NCBI GenBank assembly: GCA_011523395.1 | Contig: WTGW01000032.1 | Location: 1-61,880 of the forward strand | From: Acidimicrobiia bacterium | Lineage (GTDB): Bacteria; Actinomycetota; Acidimicrobiia; Spongiisociales; Spongiisociaceae | DNA: 61,880 nt | Reading direction: 5' to 3' | Shown: positions 2,576 to 59,013 of the stretch, in pieces | Layout: each line of letters opens with the position of its first letter | How positions within the stretch are numbered: position 1 is the stretch's first letter | The notes under the pieces: model-generated | Seen by the model: the letters and a program-made list of their open reading frames with translations, nothing else | Database searches by the model: none | Told to the model about the DNA's origin: nothing | Position numbers and translations under genes: made by a program

Positions 2576-3931
2576 ATGGAACGGCGCATCTTCGGTCTCG
2601 AGAACGAGTTCGGTATCACGTGCACGCTTCGAGGCCAGCGCCGCCTCAGTCCGGACGAGGTGGCCCGCATCCTCTTCCGGGGGGTCGTGACATGGGGCCG
2701 GTCGTCCAACGTGTTCCTGGAGAACGGAGCGCGGCTCTACCTGGACGTGGGTAGCCATCCGGAGTACGCCACACCGGAGTGCGACGACCTCCTCGACCTC
2801 GTGGCCCACGACAAGGCCGGGGAGCGGGTCCTGGAGGATCTCCAGCGTTCCGCCGAGCAGCGCCTCCGGAACGACGGCATCCGCGGGAACATCTTCCTCT
2901 ACAAGAACAACACCGACTCGGCCGGTAACTCCTACGGGTGCCACGAGAACTACCTGGTACTCCGCAAGGCGGACTTCCAGAAGATGCTGGACATCCTCAT
3001 ACCGTTCCTGGTCAGCCGCCAGATCTTCTCGGGGGCTGGGAAGCTCCTCCAGACCGCCAAGGGGCCTACCTTCTCGATCTCGCAACGCGCCGACCACATC
3101 TGGGAAGGGGTGTCCTCGGCCACCACGCGTTCACGCCCCATCATCAACACGCGTGACGAGCCCCATGCCGATGCCGAGCGGTTCCGGCGCCTCCACGTGA
3201 TCGCCGGCGACTCCAACATGAACGAGTACGCCACCTACGTCAAGGTGGGCGCCACCGTCGCGCTGCTCGAGATGATCGAAGCCGACGTGATGTTCAGAGA
3301 CCTCACCCTTGCCAACCCCATCCGCGCCATCCGGGAGATCAGCCAGGACCCGACCTGCCGGCAACCGGTACGCCTTGCCAACGGTCGGATGCTGTCGGCC
3401 CTCGACATCCAGTGGGAGTACCTGGACCGCATCATCCGGTACGCCCGGAACCCCGGATTCCCCGCCTCGGTGCAGCGAGCCGTCGAGATGTGGGAGCACC
3501 TCCTCACCGGCCTCGAGAAGGATCCCTTCTCGCTGGAACGCCAGGTCGATTGGGTCACGAAGTACCACCTCATCGAGCGGTACCGGGCCAAACACGGCCT
3601 GACCCTCTCCGACGCCCGGGTCCAGTTGCTGGACCTCAGCTACCACGATGTGACGGAGGAGCGCAGCCTCTACTACCTGCTGGCCCGGCGCGGTGTCGTG
3701 GAGCGCCTGGTAACCGACGCCGCCATCGCCATCGCCAAGGAAAAGCCTCCCCAGACCACCCGCGCCCGGCTCCGCGGTCAGTTCATCGCGGCCGCCAAGG
3801 CCCGCAACCGCGACTACACGGTGGACTGGGTCCACCTGAAGCTGAACGACCAGGCCCAGCGAACCGTGCTCTGCAAGGATCCCTTCAAGGCCTTCGACGA
3901 GCGGGTGGAACGCCTGATCGCCGGCCTGTGA
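2576..3931 (+). CDS. pafA: Pup-protein ligase PafA
   Basis: 451 aa starting [14 protein letters not shown] (carboxylate-amine ligase fold of the PafA/Dop family). Lies downstream of prcBA and upstream of pafBC. Confidence 0.93.
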
Positions 3932-3958
3932 GGTCCGCGGAGGACGGACCCCGGCATC

Positions 3959-4110
3959 CCTAGATCAGTGGTCAGTGGTCAGTGGCATGGTGTAACACGG
4001 AACGATACGTACCACCCCAAACAGGCTGGAGGGACAGCGGACACTCGATGCCTCCCGAGTTTCCACTGGCCACTGCCCACTGGAAACCGACCACTGGCAC
4101 TAGCCACCGG
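3959..4110 (+). repeat. Heptamer-armed hairpin element, copy 1 (pafA-pafB spacer)
   Basis: Layout: cctagat, then (CAGTGGT)x3, then ATGGTGTAAC core, then CCACTGG CCACTGC CCACTGG ... CCACTGG CACTAG CCACCGG. Same architecture as 12550-12700 and 20777-20986 (reverse). Confidence 0.85.
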
Positions 4111-4138
4111 CTGTCGAGATCGGTACATTTGGCAGACC

Positions 4139-5062
4139 ATGAGCACCGTAGTCGAGCGCCTGATCAACCTGCTTGCATATCTGGTCGACTCCACGCGTCC
4201 CGTCACCGCCGACCAGATCCGGAACACGGTGGCCGGGTACGAGAACCTCTCCGACCAGGCCTTTCACCGCAAGTTCGAGCGCGACAAGGCCAGCCTCCGC
4301 GAGCTGGGGATCGAGCTCGAGCAGGAAGCCACCGACGCCTGGGAGGTCGAGTGGGGTTACGTGGTCCCCGAGAGCAACTACCGGACCATCGAGCCGGGGC
4401 TCACCGACGAGGAACGGACCGCTCTGGTCCTCGCGGTCCACATGGTGCGTTCCGGCGGCTGGCCGTCGGGCGCCAACGGCCTGCTCAAGCTGGGAGGGGC
4501 GCGGCTGGCCGACACGGACACGCCGGTGGGCGCCGACCTGGGCCTGGGCAGCGAGCACCTGGGGCTGATCTTCCAGGCGGTGCTGGAGCGCCGCCTCATC
4601 CGGTTCCTCTATCGCGGCCGGTCGCGCAGCCTGTGCGCCTACGGCATGCACCATCGGCGGGGCCACTGGTACTTCGCGGGTGTCGAGCCGGAACAGGCCG
4701 GCACCATTCGGACCTACCGGCTCGATCGGGCGGACCGGCTCGAGTTGGTGGGAGAACCGGACGCGTTCCCGCGGCCCGAGGGCTACAGCGCCCGGGACAT
4801 CCTGTCCGCGCTGCCTTGGGAGCGACAGGCGCCGAAACGTGCCCTGATCGAGTGCGATGCCGGCATCGCCTGGTGGGTCGAGAACCGGTTCCCCGATGCC
4901 AGGACCGTGGGGCAGAGCGATACGGGTGGAACGATCCTGGAAGTCCCCTACACGAGCGACTCGCTGCTCGACATGGTCATACACCTCGATGACGGGGCGG
5001 TGATCCTCGACCCTCCGGAGCTTCGCGCCGAGATGGTCCGGCGGCTGGAGGCCGGCCGGTGA
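4139..5062 (+). CDS. pafB: PafB, HTH/WYL-domain transcriptional regulator
   Basis: Start moved to ATG 4139 (MSTVVERLINLLAYLV...) because the upstream part of the ORF runs through the repeat element. HTH N-terminus, WYL-type middle region, GTGA coupling to pafC. Confidence 0.85.
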   Translation: MSTVVERLINLLAYLVDSTRPVTADQIRNTVAGYENLSDQAFHRKFERDKASLRELGIELEQEATDAWEVEWGYVVPESNYRTIEPGLTDEERTALVLAVHMVRSGGWPSGANGLLKLGGARLADTDTPVGADLGLGSEHLGLIFQAVLERRLIRFLYRGRSRSLCAYGMHHRRGHWYFAGVEPEQAGTIRTYRLDRADRLELVGEPDAFPRPEGYSARDILSALPWERQAPKRALIECDAGIAWWVENRFPDARTVGQSDTGGTILEVPYTSDSLLDMVIHLDDGAVILDPPELRAEMVRRLEAGR

Positions 5063-12549: not shown

Positions 12550-12700
12550 CCTAGATGAGTGGTCAGTGGTCAGTGGTCAGTGGTCAGTGGATGTTGTAAC
12601 CCGAGGACGAAGCGGACACCCGACAGTCCTGGGGGCCACAAGAAACTTGACCGCTTCCGAGTCGCCCACTGGCCACCGGCCACTAGCCACCGGCCACTAA
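12550..12700 (+). repeat. Heptamer-armed hairpin element, copy 2 (divergent rhomboid / tlyA-block spacer)
   Basis: Layout: cctagatg, then (CAGTGGT)x5, then ATGTTGTAACCC core, then CCCACTGG CCACCGG CCACTAG CCACCGG CCACTAA. The core is near-identical to copy 3. Confidence 0.9.
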
Positions 12701-17932: not shown

Positions 17933-18286
17933 GGGATACTGCACCCGACATCCCGGATGGCGAGTCCGGCCAACCGGTTGACGGTCGATCTTTGTCGCAT
18001 AGCGTCACTCCGGCCGCAAGGTGTCGCATTTCTGGGGTGTGTGGGTGTCGACCGGCACCGCGGTGGTGAGCAACCGAAACGTCATCGGCCTCGTCGCGGG
18101 TTTTTTGAATGAACGGGTTCGGCCTGGTTGCCCTGGGCAAGATGGGCGCCCTCGGTTTAGTCTCCTGCCGAGGCATCAAAGTGGTCGGTCGGGTCCGTCG
18201 GGGTTACCGCACGATAGGGCTGGTCACCTTGAGTGGCCGCACGCGGAAGGATTCCGGGCGGGAGCTAGCAGACCTGGGTAGCAGGC

Positions 18287-19294
18287 ATGGATCGCACTTC
18301 GGTAGGTAGCGAGGACTGGGTTGCGAAGGTCCGGTCGACAAGACAATTCAGCGATGGAGACAGACGGGCGCCGTACAAACCCTTGTTGCTGCTCTGGGCG
18401 ATCGGCCGGCTGGCCGCAGGTCACCCGGCGCGCGTCTCGTTCTGCGATGCCGAGGAGGAATTGACAAGGCTGATGGAGGGCCATCGGCTAGGCGAGACGC
18501 TGCGTGTGTCTTATCCCTTTGTGTATCTGGGAACCAACCGAGATCTCTGGAGGGTGGAGGCTGCCGATGGATCGGATATCGCCGCAATGCCCCAGCGGGT
18601 CCGGGAGAGTAGGCCGTTCCTATTGGGGGAGGCCACAGGGGAACTGGCTCCCGATTTCGTGGTAGCACTGGAGAACCCGCGAGTGCGTTCCCGGGTGGTC
18701 AACACTCTTCTGGACATGGAGTTCCCGGAGTCACTGCACGCGGAGCTACTCGAGGAAGTAGGTCTGGGACATCTGGTTGCTCCTAGACCTCCCCAACGGG
18801 ATCCTCGGTTCAGGAGGATCGTTCTGCTCGCCTACGAGCACCGGTGTGCCTTCTGTGGCTTTGACGGGATCCTCAGGAACTCACCCGTGGCGATCGACGC
18901 TGCCCACGTACAGATGCGATCGCACAGGGGACCCGACCACATCACCAACGGTGTGGCGCTATGTACCTTCCATCATCGACTCTTCGACCAGGGTGCCCTC
19001 GGTCTCGATTCTGATCGCCGGATACTCGTCAGCCAGCACATGATCGTCCGGGCGAGAGAGGCGAACAATGCTCTGATGCGGCTGGCGGGCATGCCGATGC
19101 TGGAGCCCCAACGCGGATACGAGCCACCCGCCATCCCGCATGTGAAATGGCACTACCGGAACCTCTTCGTCCGGCCTGCCCGCAGACCCTCCTCTCCGGG
19201 TAGCCCCGGTCTCATGCCGGGCCGCCACCCTATTGACCAGACACCTGAGGCTCCCGCACCGAGCATGCGTGTCTCTGGTCGGCGGCGAACGTAA
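18287..19294 (+). CDS. HNH endonuclease, probable phosphorothioated-DNA-binding (SBD-HNH, ScoMcrA/SprMcrA-like) Type IV restriction enzyme
   Basis: C-terminal HNH motif: YEHRCAFCGF ... IDAAHV ... NGVALCTFHHRLFDQGALG. N-terminal RAPYKPLLLLWAIGRL... block matches my memory of the PT-DNA restriction family. GC is visibly lower than the flanks. Confidence 0.7.
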   Translation: MDRTSVGSEDWVAKVRSTRQFSDGDRRAPYKPLLLLWAIGRLAAGHPARVSFCDAEEELTRLMEGHRLGETLRVSYPFVYLGTNRDLWRVEAADGSDIAAMPQRVRESRPFLLGEATGELAPDFVVALENPRVRSRVVNTLLDMEFPESLHAELLEEVGLGHLVAPRPPQRDPRFRRIVLLAYEHRCAFCGFDGILRNSPVAIDAAHVQMRSHRGPDHITNGVALCTFHHRLFDQGALGLDSDRRILVSQHMIVRAREANNALMRLAGMPMLEPQRGYEPPAIPHVKWHYRNLFVRPARRPSSPGSPGLMPGRHPIDQTPEAPAPSMRVSGRRRT

Positions 19295-20256: not shown

Positions 20257-20793
20257 ATGTCCGGCAGCCCCGGAACGCCACGGGTGAAGGGACCGAGGAT
20301 GCGCCCCCTCCACCTGGCGGGCCGCCTGCTCGACGTCACTCTCTCCCGGTCGCTGAGACCGGGGGAGCAGACCGAGGTGGCGACGTTGTTGACGACCGAT
20401 GCGGAACGGTCGATGTACTGGGACCAGCCGCGGGCCGATCAGCGCCACGGGTTGGCCGCGGCTCGGCTGGTCCGGTCAGCCCGGCCCGGCCGGACCGACC
20501 TGGTTCGGGCGGCGTTGCTGCACGACGTGGGAAAGCGCCACTCCCGGCTGGGACCGATGGGACGGTCCATGGCGACCGTCCTGGGCCGGCTCGGCAACAG
20601 GGGGTCGGCAAGGTTCGCCGACTACCTGGACCACGGCCGGATCGCCGCCCTGGAGCTGGGTCGGTCGGGCGCCGAACCGCTGGTGGTCGCCTTCGCGCTC
20701 CATCACCACCGCGACCGTCCCGAGGAGATCTCTCGCGAGGACTGGGAACTGCTCCAGGCGGCCGATCGCGCTGTTTTAGTTTCTAGTTCCTAG
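20257..20793 (+). CDS. HD-domain protein (metal-dependent phosphohydrolase-like)
   Basis: Contains RHGLAAARLV ... AALLHDVGK. Start is ATG 20257 or 20299. The stop codon lies inside the TAGTTNN heptamer array. Confidence 0.6.
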   Translation: MSGSPGTPRVKGPRMRPLHLAGRLLDVTLSRSLRPGEQTEVATLLTTDAERSMYWDQPRADQRHGLAAARLVRSARPGRTDLVRAALLHDVGKRHSRLGPMGRSMATVLGRLGNRGSARFADYLDHGRIAALELGRSGAEPLVVAFALHHHRDRPEEISREDWELLQAADRAVLVSSS

Positions 20794-20986
20794 TTGTTAG
20801 TTGCTAGTTTGTATTGAATTATGCTGATAACTGTGTAGTGCCAGTGGCCGGTGACCAGTGGCCAGTGGCGACTCGGGGAACGGTCAAGTTCCTTGTGGCC
20901 CTTAAGGCTGTTGGTTGTCCGTCCTCCTCCCTGGGTTACAACATTCACTGACCACTGCCCACTGCCCACTGGACTGAGCATCTAGG
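20777..20986 (-). repeat. Heptamer-armed hairpin element, copy 3 (inverted orientation, with an extra TAGTTNN x5 array)
   Basis: The reverse complement reads cctagatg, CAGTGGG CAGTGGG CAGTGGT CAGTGA, ATGTTGTAACCC core, then GCCACTG GCCACTG GTCACCG GCCACTG. On the + strand, TAGTTTC TAGTTCC TAGTTGT TAGTTGC TAGTTTG lies at 20777-20811. Confidence 0.9.
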
Positions 20987-21084
20987 AGGGAGTTGAGAAC
21001 GCATCGCCCCACCGGATCGGTGTTCCTCGGTTTCCGCGAGACCGGCGCCTACCATCAGCGTATGACGAGTCGAGGCGTGCCGGC

Positions 21085-21843
21085 ATGACGTACGAGGTGG
21101 AGACTCCCGTCTTCGTGGGTCCTCTCGAACTGCTCCTCAAGTTGGTCAGCCGCCGTCATGTCGACGTCATGGAGGTCAACATCTCCCGCGTCATCGAGGA
21201 TTACCTGGCCTCCATCGAGGAGAAGGAGGTCAACCTCGAACTGGCCTCCAGTTTCGTCCTGATGGCGGCGATGCTCATCCACCTCAAGGCCCGTTTCCTG
21301 TTGCCGGAGCCCGACCAGTTGGACCTCGAGGACGAGATGGACCTGCTCGACCAGCGGGACCGGCTGCTGGCCCGTCTGCTCGGCTTCCTTACCTACCAGG
21401 GCGTCGCGACGGTCCTCCGTGAGCGCTTGAGGCAGGGTGCGCAGTACGTGGGCCGCTCCGTCGGCATCGACCAGGATCTCGGCACCCGGCACCCGCCGTC
21501 CCTACCGGAAGGGGTGACACCGGCCGCGCTGGCCGAGATCATGACCTCGCTCGGCGAGGAAGTACGCGCCGAGGTTGAGATCCCGATGGACCACTTCGAT
21601 CTCGATCTCCCGTCGGTCGAGGACGCCATCGCCGCGATCCGGAGGAGGGTGGCCGCGGAGCTGGAGTCCACCTTCGAGCGGCTGGTGGCTCACTGCTCGA
21701 ACAGGGCGGAGGTGGCGGCGTACTTCCTGGCGATCCTGGAGCTGGCCCGATGGGGATTGGTATCCGTGTCCCAGGAGGATCCGGAGGACATCTCGGTCCG
21801 TCACTCCGACGCCAGCCCCGCCGGTGGCCGGGTCGGCCTGTGA
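21085..21843 (+). CDS. scpA: Segregation and condensation protein A
   Basis: 252 aa, FVGPLELLLKLVSRRHVDVMEVNISRVIEDYL N-terminus. Followed by an overlapping scpB. Confidence 0.9.
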   Translation: MTYEVETPVFVGPLELLLKLVSRRHVDVMEVNISRVIEDYLASIEEKEVNLELASSFVLMAAMLIHLKARFLLPEPDQLDLEDEMDLLDQRDRLLARLLGFLTYQGVATVLRERLRQGAQYVGRSVGIDQDLGTRHPPSLPEGVTPAALAEIMTSLGEEVRAEVEIPMDHFDLDLPSVEDAIAAIRRRVAAELESTFERLVAHCSNRAEVAAYFLAILELARWGLVSVSQEDPEDISVRHSDASPAGGRVGL

Positions 21844-26649: not shown

Positions 26650-26726
26650 TGGTCGGGCTGGCGGGATTTGAACCCACGACCTCTTGACCCCCAGTCAAGC
26701 GCGCTACCAAGCTGCGCCACAGCCCG
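26650..26726 (-). tRNA. tRNA-Pro (anticodon GGG), CCA encoded
   Basis: The reverse complement folds as a cloverleaf: acceptor CGGGCTG/CAGCCCG, anticodon arm CTTGA-CTGGGGG-TCAAG, T-arm GTGGG-TTCAAAT-CCCGC, 3' ACCA. Confidence 0.93.
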
Positions 26727-26893
26727 TATTCGCAGAGTGTATCACCCGGCCTCCCGGCTTTGTGGGCCCGTGGTCTGTCAACGAAACAGCCACGCGTGTC
26801 ATGGCGGTCGTCGGCGCCCCGGCGCTGCCTAGGCCAAGCCACACCGCCATCCCACTAGCCTCCCAGCCGACGCCGAAAGGGGAGACCAGGGCC

Positions 26894-58741: not shown

Positions 58742-59013
58742 CCCGGCCGATTCTCGGACAACCCGCGGCGGTCACCTTCTCACAGAGGGGGTTGAACGTG
58801 TCACTAGGACGTTGTATGTTGTTGGCTAACCGTAATTACCAACGGCCCGGTACGGACGTCTACCAGGCCGCTCGAGGGATCAAATCGTTCGGGGCAGCCC
58901 CCACTAGGGCATAGCACAACGCGCCCCGAACCCAGGTGGTGGCGGTGGGGGAGGGCCCAACGGGCGAAGCCCGCTCGCCGCGATTTTCGCGTTCTTGGCC
59001 CAGCTAGCGGCCG

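What the first reader, a model, noticed from the sequence alone, without database searches (positions are those of the whole stretch)
20777..20986. Copy 3 of the hairpin element is inverted, carries an extra TAGTTNN x5 array, and supplies the stop codon of the upstream HD-domain gene
On the + strand the element ends with TAGTTTC TAGTTCC TAGTTGT TAGTTGC TAGTTTG (20777-20811). Because the period is 7, the TAGs fall in all three forward frames, and the HD-domain gene stops at the third one (20791). The complementary strand reads ...cTAGcaacTAAcaacTAGgaacTAGaaacTAA, which gives stops in all three reverse frames. The (CAGTGGT)n arms of copies 1 and 2 likewise read CCACTGA CCACTGA ... on the opposite strand, giving TGA in all three frames. 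These arrays therefore act as bidirectional, frame-independent translation stops placed between genes. This may be incidental to the heptamer period, or it may be part of how the elements are tolerated or selected. The last residues of the HD protein (...AVLVSSS) are encoded by element sequence, so the insertion has probably remodelled the gene's 3' end.
Basis: partly seen in the sequence, partly recalled or inferred. Interest (0 to 1): 0.65.

Follow-up and report, generated by a model that had tools for sequence, protein, structure and literature searches.

The report
Two small mobile hairpin elements in a gene's end
The TAG-rich 7-base array is real. It is the arm of a tiny mobile DNA element sitting next to an inverted copy of a larger hairpin element; both landed in the last codons of an HD-domain gene of a sponge-symbiont bacterium and gave it a new four-residue tail and stop codon, an ordinary kind of transposon event by a repeat family that seems undescribed.

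Summary
TAGTTNN x5 sits at 20777-20811, with stops in all three frames on both strands. The HD ORF ends at the third TAG (20791). Copy 3 of the hairpin element is inverted.

Orthologous empty sites (83-nt HD-scpA spacer) and empty alleles in related sponge metagenomes show about 206 bp of inserted DNA. The old tail and stop survive beyond it as a relic: CTA GGA GGG AGT TGA at 20982-20996. The native end ...AVL-GGS* became ...AVL-VSSS*.

Three NTAG tetranucleotides delimit two elements:
- a 55-nt type-B mini-element whose arm is the TAGTT array;
- the type-A (CAGTGGT)n hairpin copy.

Other copies are bounded in the same way: CTAG/CTAG, CTAG/CTAA, TTAG/CTAG. This fits serial insertion into CTAG, a strongly avoided tetranucleotide (33 in 62 kb) that here lies mostly between genes or in stop codons.

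The idea of bidirectional, frame-independent stop modules is not supported as a family property. The sense strand of type-A arms has no stops, and all three sense frames are closed in only 4 of 13 copies. All-frame stops follow arithmetically from a 7-nt unit containing YTAG.

The family was found only in sponge-associated Acidimicrobiia and is very abundant there. It matches no Rfam family and my literature searches found nothing. Its transposase is unknown.

The parts
20299..20793 (+). HD-domain phosphohydrolase gene (alternative start 20257). The last four sense codons GTT TCT AGT TCC and the stop TAG (20779-20793) are inserted DNA.
   Evidence: Pfam HD, E 9e-5. 641 homologs, mostly unnamed metagenome proteins; the few named ones are Acidimicrobiia or Actinomycetota MAGs. 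C-terminal alignment A2.
20776..20779 (.). Left boundary tetranucleotide TTAG (YTAR); overlaps the Leu codon TTA.
   Evidence: Empty alleles have GTC CTC / GTC CTG here.
20777..20811 (+). TAGTTNN x5 array: the arm of the type-B mini-element. TAG in all three forward frames and TAG/TAA in all three reverse frames.
   Evidence: The same 32-34 nt recur on 4-6 other contigs of similar depth in metagenomes X1-X4. Similar to the arms of the L002 type-B element.
20812..20834 (+). Remainder of the type-B mini-element (TATTGAATTATGCTGATAACTGTG-like). GCTGATAACTG pairs back onto the array.
   Evidence: Fold. CAGTTATC is shared with the right end of the L002 element.
20835..20838 (.). Middle boundary tetranucleotide GTAG (CTAG in sister contig L003); separates type B from type A.
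   Evidence: Alignment A3.
20839..20981 (-). Type-A hairpin element, copy 3, inverted. 3' arm 20839-20869; core 20870-20944; 5' arm (CAGTGGN)x4 20945-20971; leader ATGCTCAGTC 20972-20981.
   Evidence: Alignment with copies 1 and 2. Pattern hit on the minus strand. nhmmer E 3e-25. Long hairpin, z -3.3 and -2.8.
20982..20996 (+). Right boundary CTAG (20982-85) plus the relic of the former HD tail and stop: CTA GGA GGG AGT TGA (L G G S stop), now out of frame.
   Evidence: 13 of 15 bases identical to the empty allele CTG GGA GGG GGT TGA in run X5. Ortholog P0011 ends AVLGGS.
21085..21843 (+). scpA, the downstream gene. The spacer to the HD gene grew from 83 nt to 291 nt.
   Evidence: Pfam SMC_ScpA. 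Gene tables of L001 and L002.
3964..4099 (+). Type-A copy 1, flanked by CTAG (3960-63) and CTAG (4100-03), between pafA (Pup ligase) and a WYL/WCX regulator gene.
   Evidence: Alleles lacking it join 3931 to 4099 with 61 nt between.
12555..12696 (+). Type-A copy 2, flanked by CTAG (12551-54) and CTAA (12697-12700), between divergent rhomboid and 81-aa genes.
   Evidence: Empty sites in L002, L003 and run X13.

Best explanation
The region 20776-20985 holds two adjacent non-autonomous, MITE-like hairpin elements inserted into a CTAG four codons before the stop of the HD gene.

The inner element (20839-20981, minus orientation) is a copy of a type-A family with this layout: leader, (CAGTGGT)n arm, a variable core of about 75 nt that begins ATGTTGTAAC, then a (GCCACTG/GCCACCG)n arm.

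The outer element (20780-20834, plus orientation) is a 55-nt type-B relative. Its arm is the TAGTTNN array.

Shown:
- The DNA is an insertion, absent from orthologous sites.
- It displaced the native tail, which survives as a relic.
- The HD ORF now reads four codons into the type-B arm and stops at the first in-frame TAG.
- Element boundaries coincide with (C/T)TAG or CTAA.

Inferred: a transposase that targets CTAG and duplicates either TA or the whole tetranucleotide mobilises both types. Known examples are IS630/Tc1 (TA within CTAG) and IS5 (YTAR). The second element entered one of the duplicated CTAGs left by the first.

CTAG is strongly avoided in this 68% G+C genome and occurs mostly between genes or in TAG stop codons. 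The family therefore ends up at gene ends.

The all-frame stops on both strands are a by-product of a 7-nt unit (7 mod 3 = 1) that contains the near-palindromic YTAG motif. They did limit the damage here to a swap of a non-conserved 3-4-residue tail, but there is no evidence that they were selected for that.
For: Insertion and relic tail:
- Empty sites L001 and L002 have an 83-nt HD-scpA spacer; the window has 291 nt and L003 about 300 nt.
- Empty alleles occur in related metagenome populations. X5 joins 20771 to 21010 through CGTCCTGGGAGGGGGTTGAACACG; X10 and X13 join 20765 to 21014.
- The relic CTA GGA GGG AGT TGA sits at 20982-96, and the ortholog tails are GGS/GGG.

Boundaries:
- Here: TTAG 20776 | GTAG 20835 (CTAG in L003) | CTAG 20982.
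- Copy 1 CTAG/CTAG; copy 2 CTAG/CTAA; L037 TTAG/CTAG.
- The copy-2 empty site already has CTAG exactly at the junction.
- The flank of alleles lacking copy 1 resumes at 4099, one base before the CTAG at 4100.

CTAG avoidance: 33 observed against 185 (independent bases) or 70 (Markov) expected; 8 of the 33 lie in or directly flanking the three element sites. The rest are mostly intergenic or stop codons.

Real genes whose stop is at or near a boundary CTAG:
- L096: 343-codon ORF, GC3 0.86, stop at the boundary.
- L037: 488-codon ORF with a GlmM-like C-terminus, stop at the boundary.
- L046/L065: RseP-like ORFs, stop in a CTAG 4-7 nt outside.

Family and mobility:
- 13 type-A copies, found only in Ca. 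Spongiisocius, another Acidimicrobiia MAG and close relatives of the window.
- Presence/absence polymorphism at all three window sites.
- Summed depth of (CAGTGGT)n is about 61,000 against about 50 for flanks, on 162-533 contigs per run.

Type B is a repeat in its own right:
- The 32-34-nt array recurs on 4-6 other contigs of about the same depth, with unrelated flanks.
- One such array follows a CTAGATCA leader like that of type A.
- L002 16236-16458 has TAGTT-like and AACTA-like inverted arms, 22/24 identity to the array.

IS630 preference for TA within CTAG: Tenzen & Ohtsubo 1991, as cited in PMC2170065.
Against: - No transposase or autonomous partner with matching ends was found or searched for genome-wide.
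- The closest empty alleles have CTG GGA or CTC CGA, not CTA GGA, at the insertion point. A pre-existing CTAG at this particular site is therefore inferred, not seen.
- L003 has CTGG rather than CTAG at the right boundary.
- At copy 2 the element replaces about 30 nt of the empty-site sequence rather than simply being added. The L002 type-B element likewise replaces about 99 nt.
- Several older type-A copies end in CCACTAC rather than CTAG, so part of the tetranucleotide may belong to the element end rather than to a target duplication.
- The similarity between the array and the L002 arms is between low-complexity sequences (E 0.002-0.007 in a small database).
Confidence: 0.72

Rival explanations
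1. One reading: the heptamer arrays are selected as bidirectional, frame-independent translation stops (insulators) that make the elements tolerable or useful between genes.
For: - The TAGTT array closes all six frames within 35 nt and does terminate the HD ORF after four foreign codons.
- The antisense strand of type-A elements closes all three frames in 11 of 13 copies.
- All five units carry a pyrimidine before TAG, which is what creates the reverse-strand stops.
Against: - The sense strand of type-A 5' arms has no stops (10 of 13 arms have none).
- The 3' arms are essentially stop-free on both strands.
- Only 4 of 13 elements close all three sense frames.
- Copy 1 leaves the pafB frame open across its entire length.
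- Chance expectation for a heptamer is already 15% per strand.
- At the other gene ends checked (L096, L037, L046/L065), the flanking gene stops in a single CTAG at the boundary or 4-7 nt outside it, not in an array.
- The pyrimidine before TAG is equally explained by YTAG being the family's boundary motif.
Confidence: 0.1
2. The elements move as single-stranded hairpins through an HUH/Y1 tyrosine transposase (IS200/IS605-type or RAYT/REPIN-type). They insert next to a conserved (C/G)TAG tetranucleotide without target duplication.
For: - Against the nearest empty allele (X5), the L003 filled site shows insertion exactly between GTC and CTG, with no duplicated bases and no TA in the target.
- Many type-A 3' ends read CCACTAC, whose reverse complement GTAG is the tag of GTAG-type REPs (PMC3733652).
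- The elements are long hairpins with G-T-compatible arm asymmetry.
- They lie downstream of genes, as REPs do.
Against: - Each arm is not itself a small palindrome, which defines a REP unit; the arms pair only with each other.
- Copies 1, 2 and 3 and L037 have YTAR on both sides, as expected for a duplication.
- The three-NTAG arrangement around two elements is what serial duplication predicts.
- No Y1/RAYT gene was looked for or seen.
Confidence: 0.13
3. Not mobile DNA: the array and hairpin arose in place by slippage, or they are host regulatory sequence (terminator, RNA-stability hairpin, protein-binding iterons) that is conserved rather than inserted.
For: - Heptamer number is hypervariable at orthologous loci (16 vs 2 units in L065/L046; 19 vs at least 12 in L075/L118), which shows active slippage.
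- Two loci are shared between two different MAGs.
- A weak terminator-like site overlaps 20756-20776.
Against: - The same 32-34-nt array, with the same order of variable positions, recurs at unrelated loci. Independent slippage would not produce that.
- Empty alleles are clean.
- Cores differ between copies while leaders and arms are shared.
- No U-run follows the big hairpin on either strand and no promoter-like site was found.
- No Rfam family matches.
- The cores have no conserved fold.
Confidence: 0.05

Closest known systems
Bacterial MITEs derived from IS630/Tc1-mariner or IS5-family insertion sequences (for example RUP and Nezha)
   Same: - Small (55-250 bp), non-coding, with inverted-repeat arms that form a stable hairpin.
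- Many dispersed copies, mostly intergenic, with presence/absence polymorphism between close relatives.
- Boundaries at CTAG/YTAR, as for IS630 (TA within CTAG; cited in PMC2170065). The IS5 target (YTAR) is from my own knowledge.
   Different: - The arms are tandem arrays of a heptamer whose copy number ranges from 2 to at least 19, rather than unique terminal inverted repeats.
- No cognate transposase has been identified.
- Some sites show replacement of flanking DNA rather than simple addition.
Foldback (FB-type) transposons of eukaryotes (from my own knowledge, not tested)
   Same: Long inverted arms built from short tandem repeats, arm length highly variable between copies, and a central non-repetitive loop.
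   Different: Those are eukaryotic and kilobase-sized, and some carry genes. Here the elements are bacterial, 55-250 bp and non-coding. The resemblance is architectural only.
BrickBuilt MITE of Porphyromonas gingivalis (PMC4596501)
   Same: A bacterial MITE that contains a tandem repeat, has leader and tail subunits, is intergenic and occurs in many copies.
   Different: BrickBuilt has a single internal 23-nt minisatellite, not two complementary heptamer arrays forming the hairpin. It comes from a different phylum and its sequence is unrelated.
GTAG-tagged REPs, REP dimers and REPINs mobilised by RAYTs (PMC3733652)
   Same: A tetranucleotide tag ((C/G)TAG) at the outer ends, inverted pairs that fold into a larger hairpin, a preference for positions downstream of ORFs, and G-T pairs suggesting RNA-level folding.
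   Different: A REP unit is itself a 20-40-bp palindrome with a 6-13-bp stem; here the arms are not self-complementary. The taxon is different and no RAYT was identified.
MITE-ORF fusions (Rickettsia RPEs, ERIC, Anabaena MITEs, QMITE1; review PMC10969869)
   Same: A small repeat inserted within a coding region changes the protein sequence without destroying the gene.
   Different: Those are mostly in-frame internal insertions that add a peptide. Here the insertion replaces the last 3 residues and supplies a new stop.
Cyanobacterial STRR heptanucleotide repeats (from my own knowledge, not tested)
   Same: Tandem 7-nt units in intergenic DNA.
   Different: Different sequences and phylum. STRRs are not organised as two complementary arms around a core, as far as I know.

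Membership tests
MITE (generic) | Short (under about 300 bp), no coding capacity | tested here: met
   Elements are 55-250 nt. Only spurious repeat-encoded ORFs run through them.
MITE (generic) | Terminal inverted repeats | tested here: met
   The arms pair over about 30 bp or more. Hairpin -72 to -84 kcal/mol, z about -3. The alifold consensus keeps only the arm pairing.
MITE (generic) | Multiple dispersed copies and filled/empty polymorphism at orthologous sites | tested here: met
   13 copies across 11 sequence sources (window, L003 and nine genome loci), plus very high depth in metagenomes. Empty sites for all three window copies.
MITE (generic) | Target-site duplication | tested here: inconclusive
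   YTAR on both sides in copies 1, 2 and 3 and in L037. However, the nearest empty alleles of the HD site lack TA/CTAG, copy 2 shows a 30-nt replacement, and older copies end in CTAC.
MITE (generic) | A cognate autonomous IS with the same ends | not tested
No transposase was seen in the genes examined.
IS630/Tc1-mariner-derived MITE | Insertion into TA (CTAG preferred) with TA duplication | tested here: inconclusive
   All clean boundaries can be read as C-TA-[G...C]-TA-G. A 4-bp CTAG duplication (IS5-like) fits equally well.
REP / REPIN (RAYT-mobilised) | Each unit is a 20-40-bp imperfect palindrome with an unpaired GTAG tag | tested here: not met
   Arms are tandem CAGTGGT or GCCACTG units with no self-complementarity. 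Only the tag-like (C/G)TAG is present.
IS200/IS605-derived PATE | Separate subterminal hairpins at each end; insertion 3' of a fixed tetra- or pentanucleotide; no duplication | tested here: inconclusive
   The 5' flank ends in C(T/C)AG in every informative case. The two ends pair with each other rather than forming separate hairpins.
Any Rfam RNA family | Match at or above the gathering score | tested here: not met
   The only hit in the window is a tRNA at 26653-26726. The permissive scan of 20700-21100 gave only a chance miRNA hit, 18.8 bits against a threshold of 128.
Intrinsic (Rho-independent) terminator | G+C-rich hairpin followed by a U-run | tested here: not met
   No T-run follows the large hairpin on either strand. 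The only consensus hit is a weak 7-bp stem at 20756-20776.

The most novel reading that the evidence does not exclude
The heptamer-armed hairpins may be more than selfish DNA. Their hypervariable arrays (2 to at least 19 units at the same locus) and stop-rich terminal units could serve as gene-end cassettes that the host exploits. They would cap ORFs in any frame and, through slippage, tune the length of 3' UTR or promoter spacers in a symbiont lineage. Alternatively, they may be mobilised by a mechanism not yet described for bacteria: a foldback-type element whose arms grow by repeated copying of the transposase site.
Probability: 0.1. Interest if true: 0.7.

Novelty: new variant of a known kind. 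Interest (0 to 1): 0.4.

Why it matters
This is a clean, datable case of a small mobile element rewriting a gene's C-terminus and stop codon. The old tail is still readable next to it, and empty alleles coexist in related populations.

More broadly, it points to an apparently undescribed repeat family in sponge-associated Acidimicrobiia (Ca. Spongiisocius and relatives). The family is very abundant, and its arms are heptamer microsatellites. Three practical consequences follow:
- The repeats break metagenome assemblies.
- They lead gene callers to predict spurious QWSVVSG-repeat ORFs.
- They could serve as strain markers.

The link to CTAG, a tetranucleotide the genome otherwise avoids, gives a simple mechanistic reason why the elements accumulate at stop codons and gene ends.

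Tried and rejected
- Rfam, gathering and permissive thresholds: no family matched.
- Conserved RNA fold of the core: alifold on 13 copies keeps only the arm pairing, so I dropped the idea of a structured sRNA.
- Genome-contig scan with a 17-base core pattern: 115 or more loci, nearly all chance matches. Nine are real copies, six in Ca. Spongiisocius and three in one Acidimicrobiia MAG.
- Metagenome-contig scan with a 21-base pattern: one hit, a chance match inside a coding region.
- nhmmer and blastn for further type-A or type-B copies in the window and related loci: none beyond the known 13 and the L002 element.
- RNA evidence: no run is clearly RNA; the three 'rna' candidates are of unknown kind and are held only as contigs. 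Transcription was therefore not assessed.
- Promoter scan of the AT-rich tail: no sigma-70-like site.
- Simple TA-duplication model at the HD site against the X5 empty allele: it does not fit without assuming a CTA allele. I kept it as inferred only.
- Literature searches (heptanucleotide repeats plus MITE, Nezha, IS630 plus CTAG, Spongiisocius, CAGTGGT, PATE): nothing describes this family.
Full report

Yes. The plus strand at 20777-20811 reads TAGTTTC TAGTTCC TAGTTGT TAGTTGC TAGTTTG. TRF calls a period-7 array of 4.7 copies. A three-unit version of the pattern occurs nowhere else in 61.9 kb and never in 100 shuffles.

The ORF that ends at TAG 20791-93 is a genuine gene. It matches Pfam HD and has 641 homologs. 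Most are unnamed metagenome proteins, and the few named ones are Acidimicrobiia or Actinomycetota MAGs. Its likely start is 20299 (MRPLHLAG...) or 20257.

The minus strand reads CAAACTAGCAACTAACAACTAGGAACTAGAAACTAA, so five TAG/TAA codons at 7-nt spacing cover all three reverse frames.

The hairpin element occurs three times in the window. Its core signature CAGTG(N)ATGKTGTAACMC is on the plus strand at 3980 and 12585 and on the minus strand at 20933-20950, so copy 3 is inverted.

**2. What the orthologous sites show**

The 28 close and distant HD orthologs that I aligned (A2) share ...LLQAADRAVL. After that come 2-4 variable residues in the close orthologs (RGG, RRS, GRN, GGG, GGS...) and longer tails in the more distant ones. 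Only the window and protein P0001 end AVL-VSSS.

- L001 (93% identical HD) and L002 have an 83-nt HD-scpA spacer and no element.
- L003, which encodes P0001, has about 300 nt with the same array and the same inverted element.
- The window comes from a sponge metagenome: run X1 holds 100% of the sampled words. Related populations in other runs carry empty alleles. X5 joins 20771 to 21010 through CGTCCTGGGAGGGGGTTGAACACG, that is ...GCC GTC CTG GGA GGG GGT TGA. X10 and X13 join 20765 to 21014.

The window's own right flank, CTA GGA GGG AGT TGA at 20982-20996, is 13/15 identical to the X5 tail and encodes L-G-G-S-stop. Ortholog P0011 ends AVLGGS. The former C-terminus and stop codon are therefore still present, pushed about 206 nt downstream and out of frame.

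The native end ...AVL-GGS* has become ...AVL-VSSS*. Only VSSS and the stop are foreign. The replaced residues lie in the non-conserved tail, so the protein is probably unharmed (inference).

**3. Anatomy: two elements, three NTAGs**

On the plus strand the region reads:

- TTAG (20776-79)
- 55 nt, consisting of the TAGTT array plus TATTGAATTATGCTGATAACTGTG
- GTAG (20835-38); this is CTAG in L003
- the 143-nt inverted type-A element
- CTAG (20982-85)
- the relic tail

The other window copies are bounded in the same way. Copy 1 is 3964-4099 between CTAG and CTAG. Copy 2 is 12555-12696 between CTAG and CTAA.

The copy-2 empty sites (L002, L003, X13) already carry CTAG exactly at the junction. Alleles lacking copy 1 resume at 4099, one base before the CTAG at 4100. 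L037 is bounded by TTAG and CTAG.

CTAG is strongly avoided in the window: 33 observed against 185 expected from base composition or 70 from a Markov estimate. Eight of the 33 lie in or directly flank the three element sites. The rest are mostly intergenic or are stop codons.

In the related genomes, real genes stop at or next to these boundaries. Two stop exactly in the boundary CTAG:
- L096: 343 codons, GC3 0.86.
- L037: 488 codons, with a GlmM-like C-terminus.

Two more stop in a CTAG 4-7 nt outside the element:
- L046 and L065, both RseP-like.

The simplest reading is serial insertion into CTAG with duplication of TA or of the whole tetranucleotide. This is the behaviour of IS630 (TA within CTAG; Tenzen & Ohtsubo 1991, cited in PMC2170065) and, from my own knowledge, of IS5 (YTAR). 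The second element would have entered a CTAG duplicated by the first.

**4. The TAGTT array is a repeat family of its own**

In runs X1-X4, the 32-34 nt at 20775/7-20808/9 recur with 1-3 mismatches on 4-6 other contigs. Their depth is close to that of the window's genome (about 40x) and their flanks are unrelated.

In X10, one such array follows the leader CTAGATCA, the same leader that precedes (CAGTGGT)n in copies 1 and 2.

L002 16236-16458, next to a tRNA gene, carries an AT-rich hairpin element. Its left arm is TAGTT-like, and its right end reads CAGTTATC TAGTACC TAGCAAT TAGCAAC TAGGAAC TAA. That is 22/24 identical to the window array. The window's orthologous spot lacks it.

TAGTTNN differs from CAGTGGN at two positions. 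Type-A 3' arms already include GCAACCG and GCAACTA units. I therefore read type B as an AT-shifted relative of type A.

**5. The type-A family**

I recovered thirteen copies: three in the window, one in L003, six in Ca. Spongiisocius sp. OZ241858.1 and three in Acidimicrobiia MAG JAJEIM01.

The leader, the 5' arm and ATGTTGTAAC are conserved. The remaining core of about 65 nt varies and shows no conserved fold.

The number of arm units is hypervariable even at orthologous loci: 16 vs 2, 19 vs at least 12, and 4 vs 5.

In the metagenomes, the summed depth of the (CAGTGGT)n arm is about 61,000 against about 50 for the flanks, and 162-533 contigs per run match the 601-nt stretch around copy 2. 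The family is therefore very abundant.

It matches nothing in Rfam, and I found no description in the literature I could search.

**6. Are the arrays translation stops by design?**

The arithmetic is correct. Any 7-nt unit containing a stop triplet closes all three frames after three units.

As a property of the family it fails:
- (CAGTGGT)n has no stop on its own strand; 10 of 13 arms have none.
- The GCCACTG, GCCACCG and GCAACCG units have none on either strand.
- Only 4 of 13 whole elements close all three sense frames, against 11 of 13 on the antisense strand.
- In copy 1, one frame is open from the pafA stop (3931) through the whole element to the pafB ATG at 4139.

At this base composition, a random heptamer array has a 15% chance of a stop on a given strand and 5% on both, so there is no excess to explain.

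The two-strand stops of TAGTTNN arise because every unit is preceded by a pyrimidine. That makes YTAG, the family's near-palindromic boundary motif.

The array did keep the HD read-through to four codons. That may have helped this particular insertion survive, but it is a single case.

**7. Mechanism, with its weak points**

Shown:
- It is an insertion.
- The tail and stop were displaced.
- The stop now lies in the array.
- Boundaries fall at YTAR.
- The copies are dispersed and polymorphic.

Inferred:
- A CTAG-targeting DDE transposase.
- The order of the two insertions.

Against the model:
- The nearest empty alleles have CTG or CTC rather than CTA at the HD site.
- L003 has CTGG at the right boundary.
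- Copy 2 and the L002 element replace 30-99 nt of flank.
- Older copies end in CCACTAC, whose reverse complement GTAG recalls REP tags (PMC3733652).

An HUH/Y1 single-strand mechanism therefore remains a live alternative. The arms, however, are not the small self-palindromes that define REPs.

**8. Verdict**

The remodelled C-terminus is confirmed and now documented by the relic tail. The "bidirectional stop module" idea is not supported as a family property.

What is there is an ordinary kind of event, a MITE inserting at a gene end. The family responsible has an unusual foldback-like, heptamer-array architecture and appears to be undescribed.

Noticed in passing
window 3929-4141: The pafA (Pup ligase) stop TGA at 3929-31 and the ATG of the downstream WYL/WCX regulator (4139) are in the same frame. 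That frame has no stop across the whole of element copy 1, so read-through of a single TGA would fuse the two proteins through 69 element-encoded residues. ORF finders also extend the regulator back to a GTG at 3968, inside the element.
   Followed up: partly
window 18287-19294: A 335-aa ORF with an HNH_2 endonuclease domain lies between pyrG and xerD. In L002 and L003 those two genes abut or overlap, so this is a roughly 1.2-1.5-kb insertion specific to the window's lineage. A CTAG sits just upstream at 18265.
   Followed up: partly
window 58800-58910: A lower-G+C intergenic stretch is bounded by two CACTAG motifs exactly 100 nt apart (58804, 58904), with a third CTAG at 59004. It contains TGTATGTTGTTGG, reminiscent of the ATGTTGTAAC core start. 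It may be a decayed relative of the hairpin elements. Overall, 9 of the 33 CTAGs in the window occur as CACTAG/CTAGTG.
   Followed up: no
window 21010-21084: The 75 nt upstream of scpA (CACCGGATCGGTGTTCCTCGGTTTCCGCGAGACCGGCGCCTACCATCAGCGTATGACGAGTCGAGGCGTGCCGGC) are almost invariant across the window, L001, L002 and L003, while the sequence just upstream varies. This suggests a conserved leader or regulatory region for scpA-scpB.
   Followed up: no
L002 16236-16458; window 26756-26854: L002 has an AT-rich type-B hairpin element next to a tRNA gene. At the same place the window has an unrelated 99-nt sequence, and the shared flank resumes exactly at a CTAG.
   Followed up: partly
window 12555-12700 vs L003 3853-3881 / run X13: At the copy-2 site the element replaces about 30 nt (GAGGGTGAGGTCTCGTACGCGGGCCGGCG) that are present in all empty alleles, so the event was not a simple addition.
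   Followed up: partly
L065 2797-2907 vs L046 6490-6503; L075 6417-6549 vs L118: The same locus in two different MAGs carries 16 vs 2, and 19 vs at least 12, CAGTGGT units. The arms behave as hypervariable microsatellites. They sit at contig ends (L118 starts inside one), which suggests they break assemblies.
   Followed up: partly
window, whole: CTAG is depleted about 5-fold relative to base composition (33 observed, 185 expected) and TA about 1.8-fold.
   Followed up: yes
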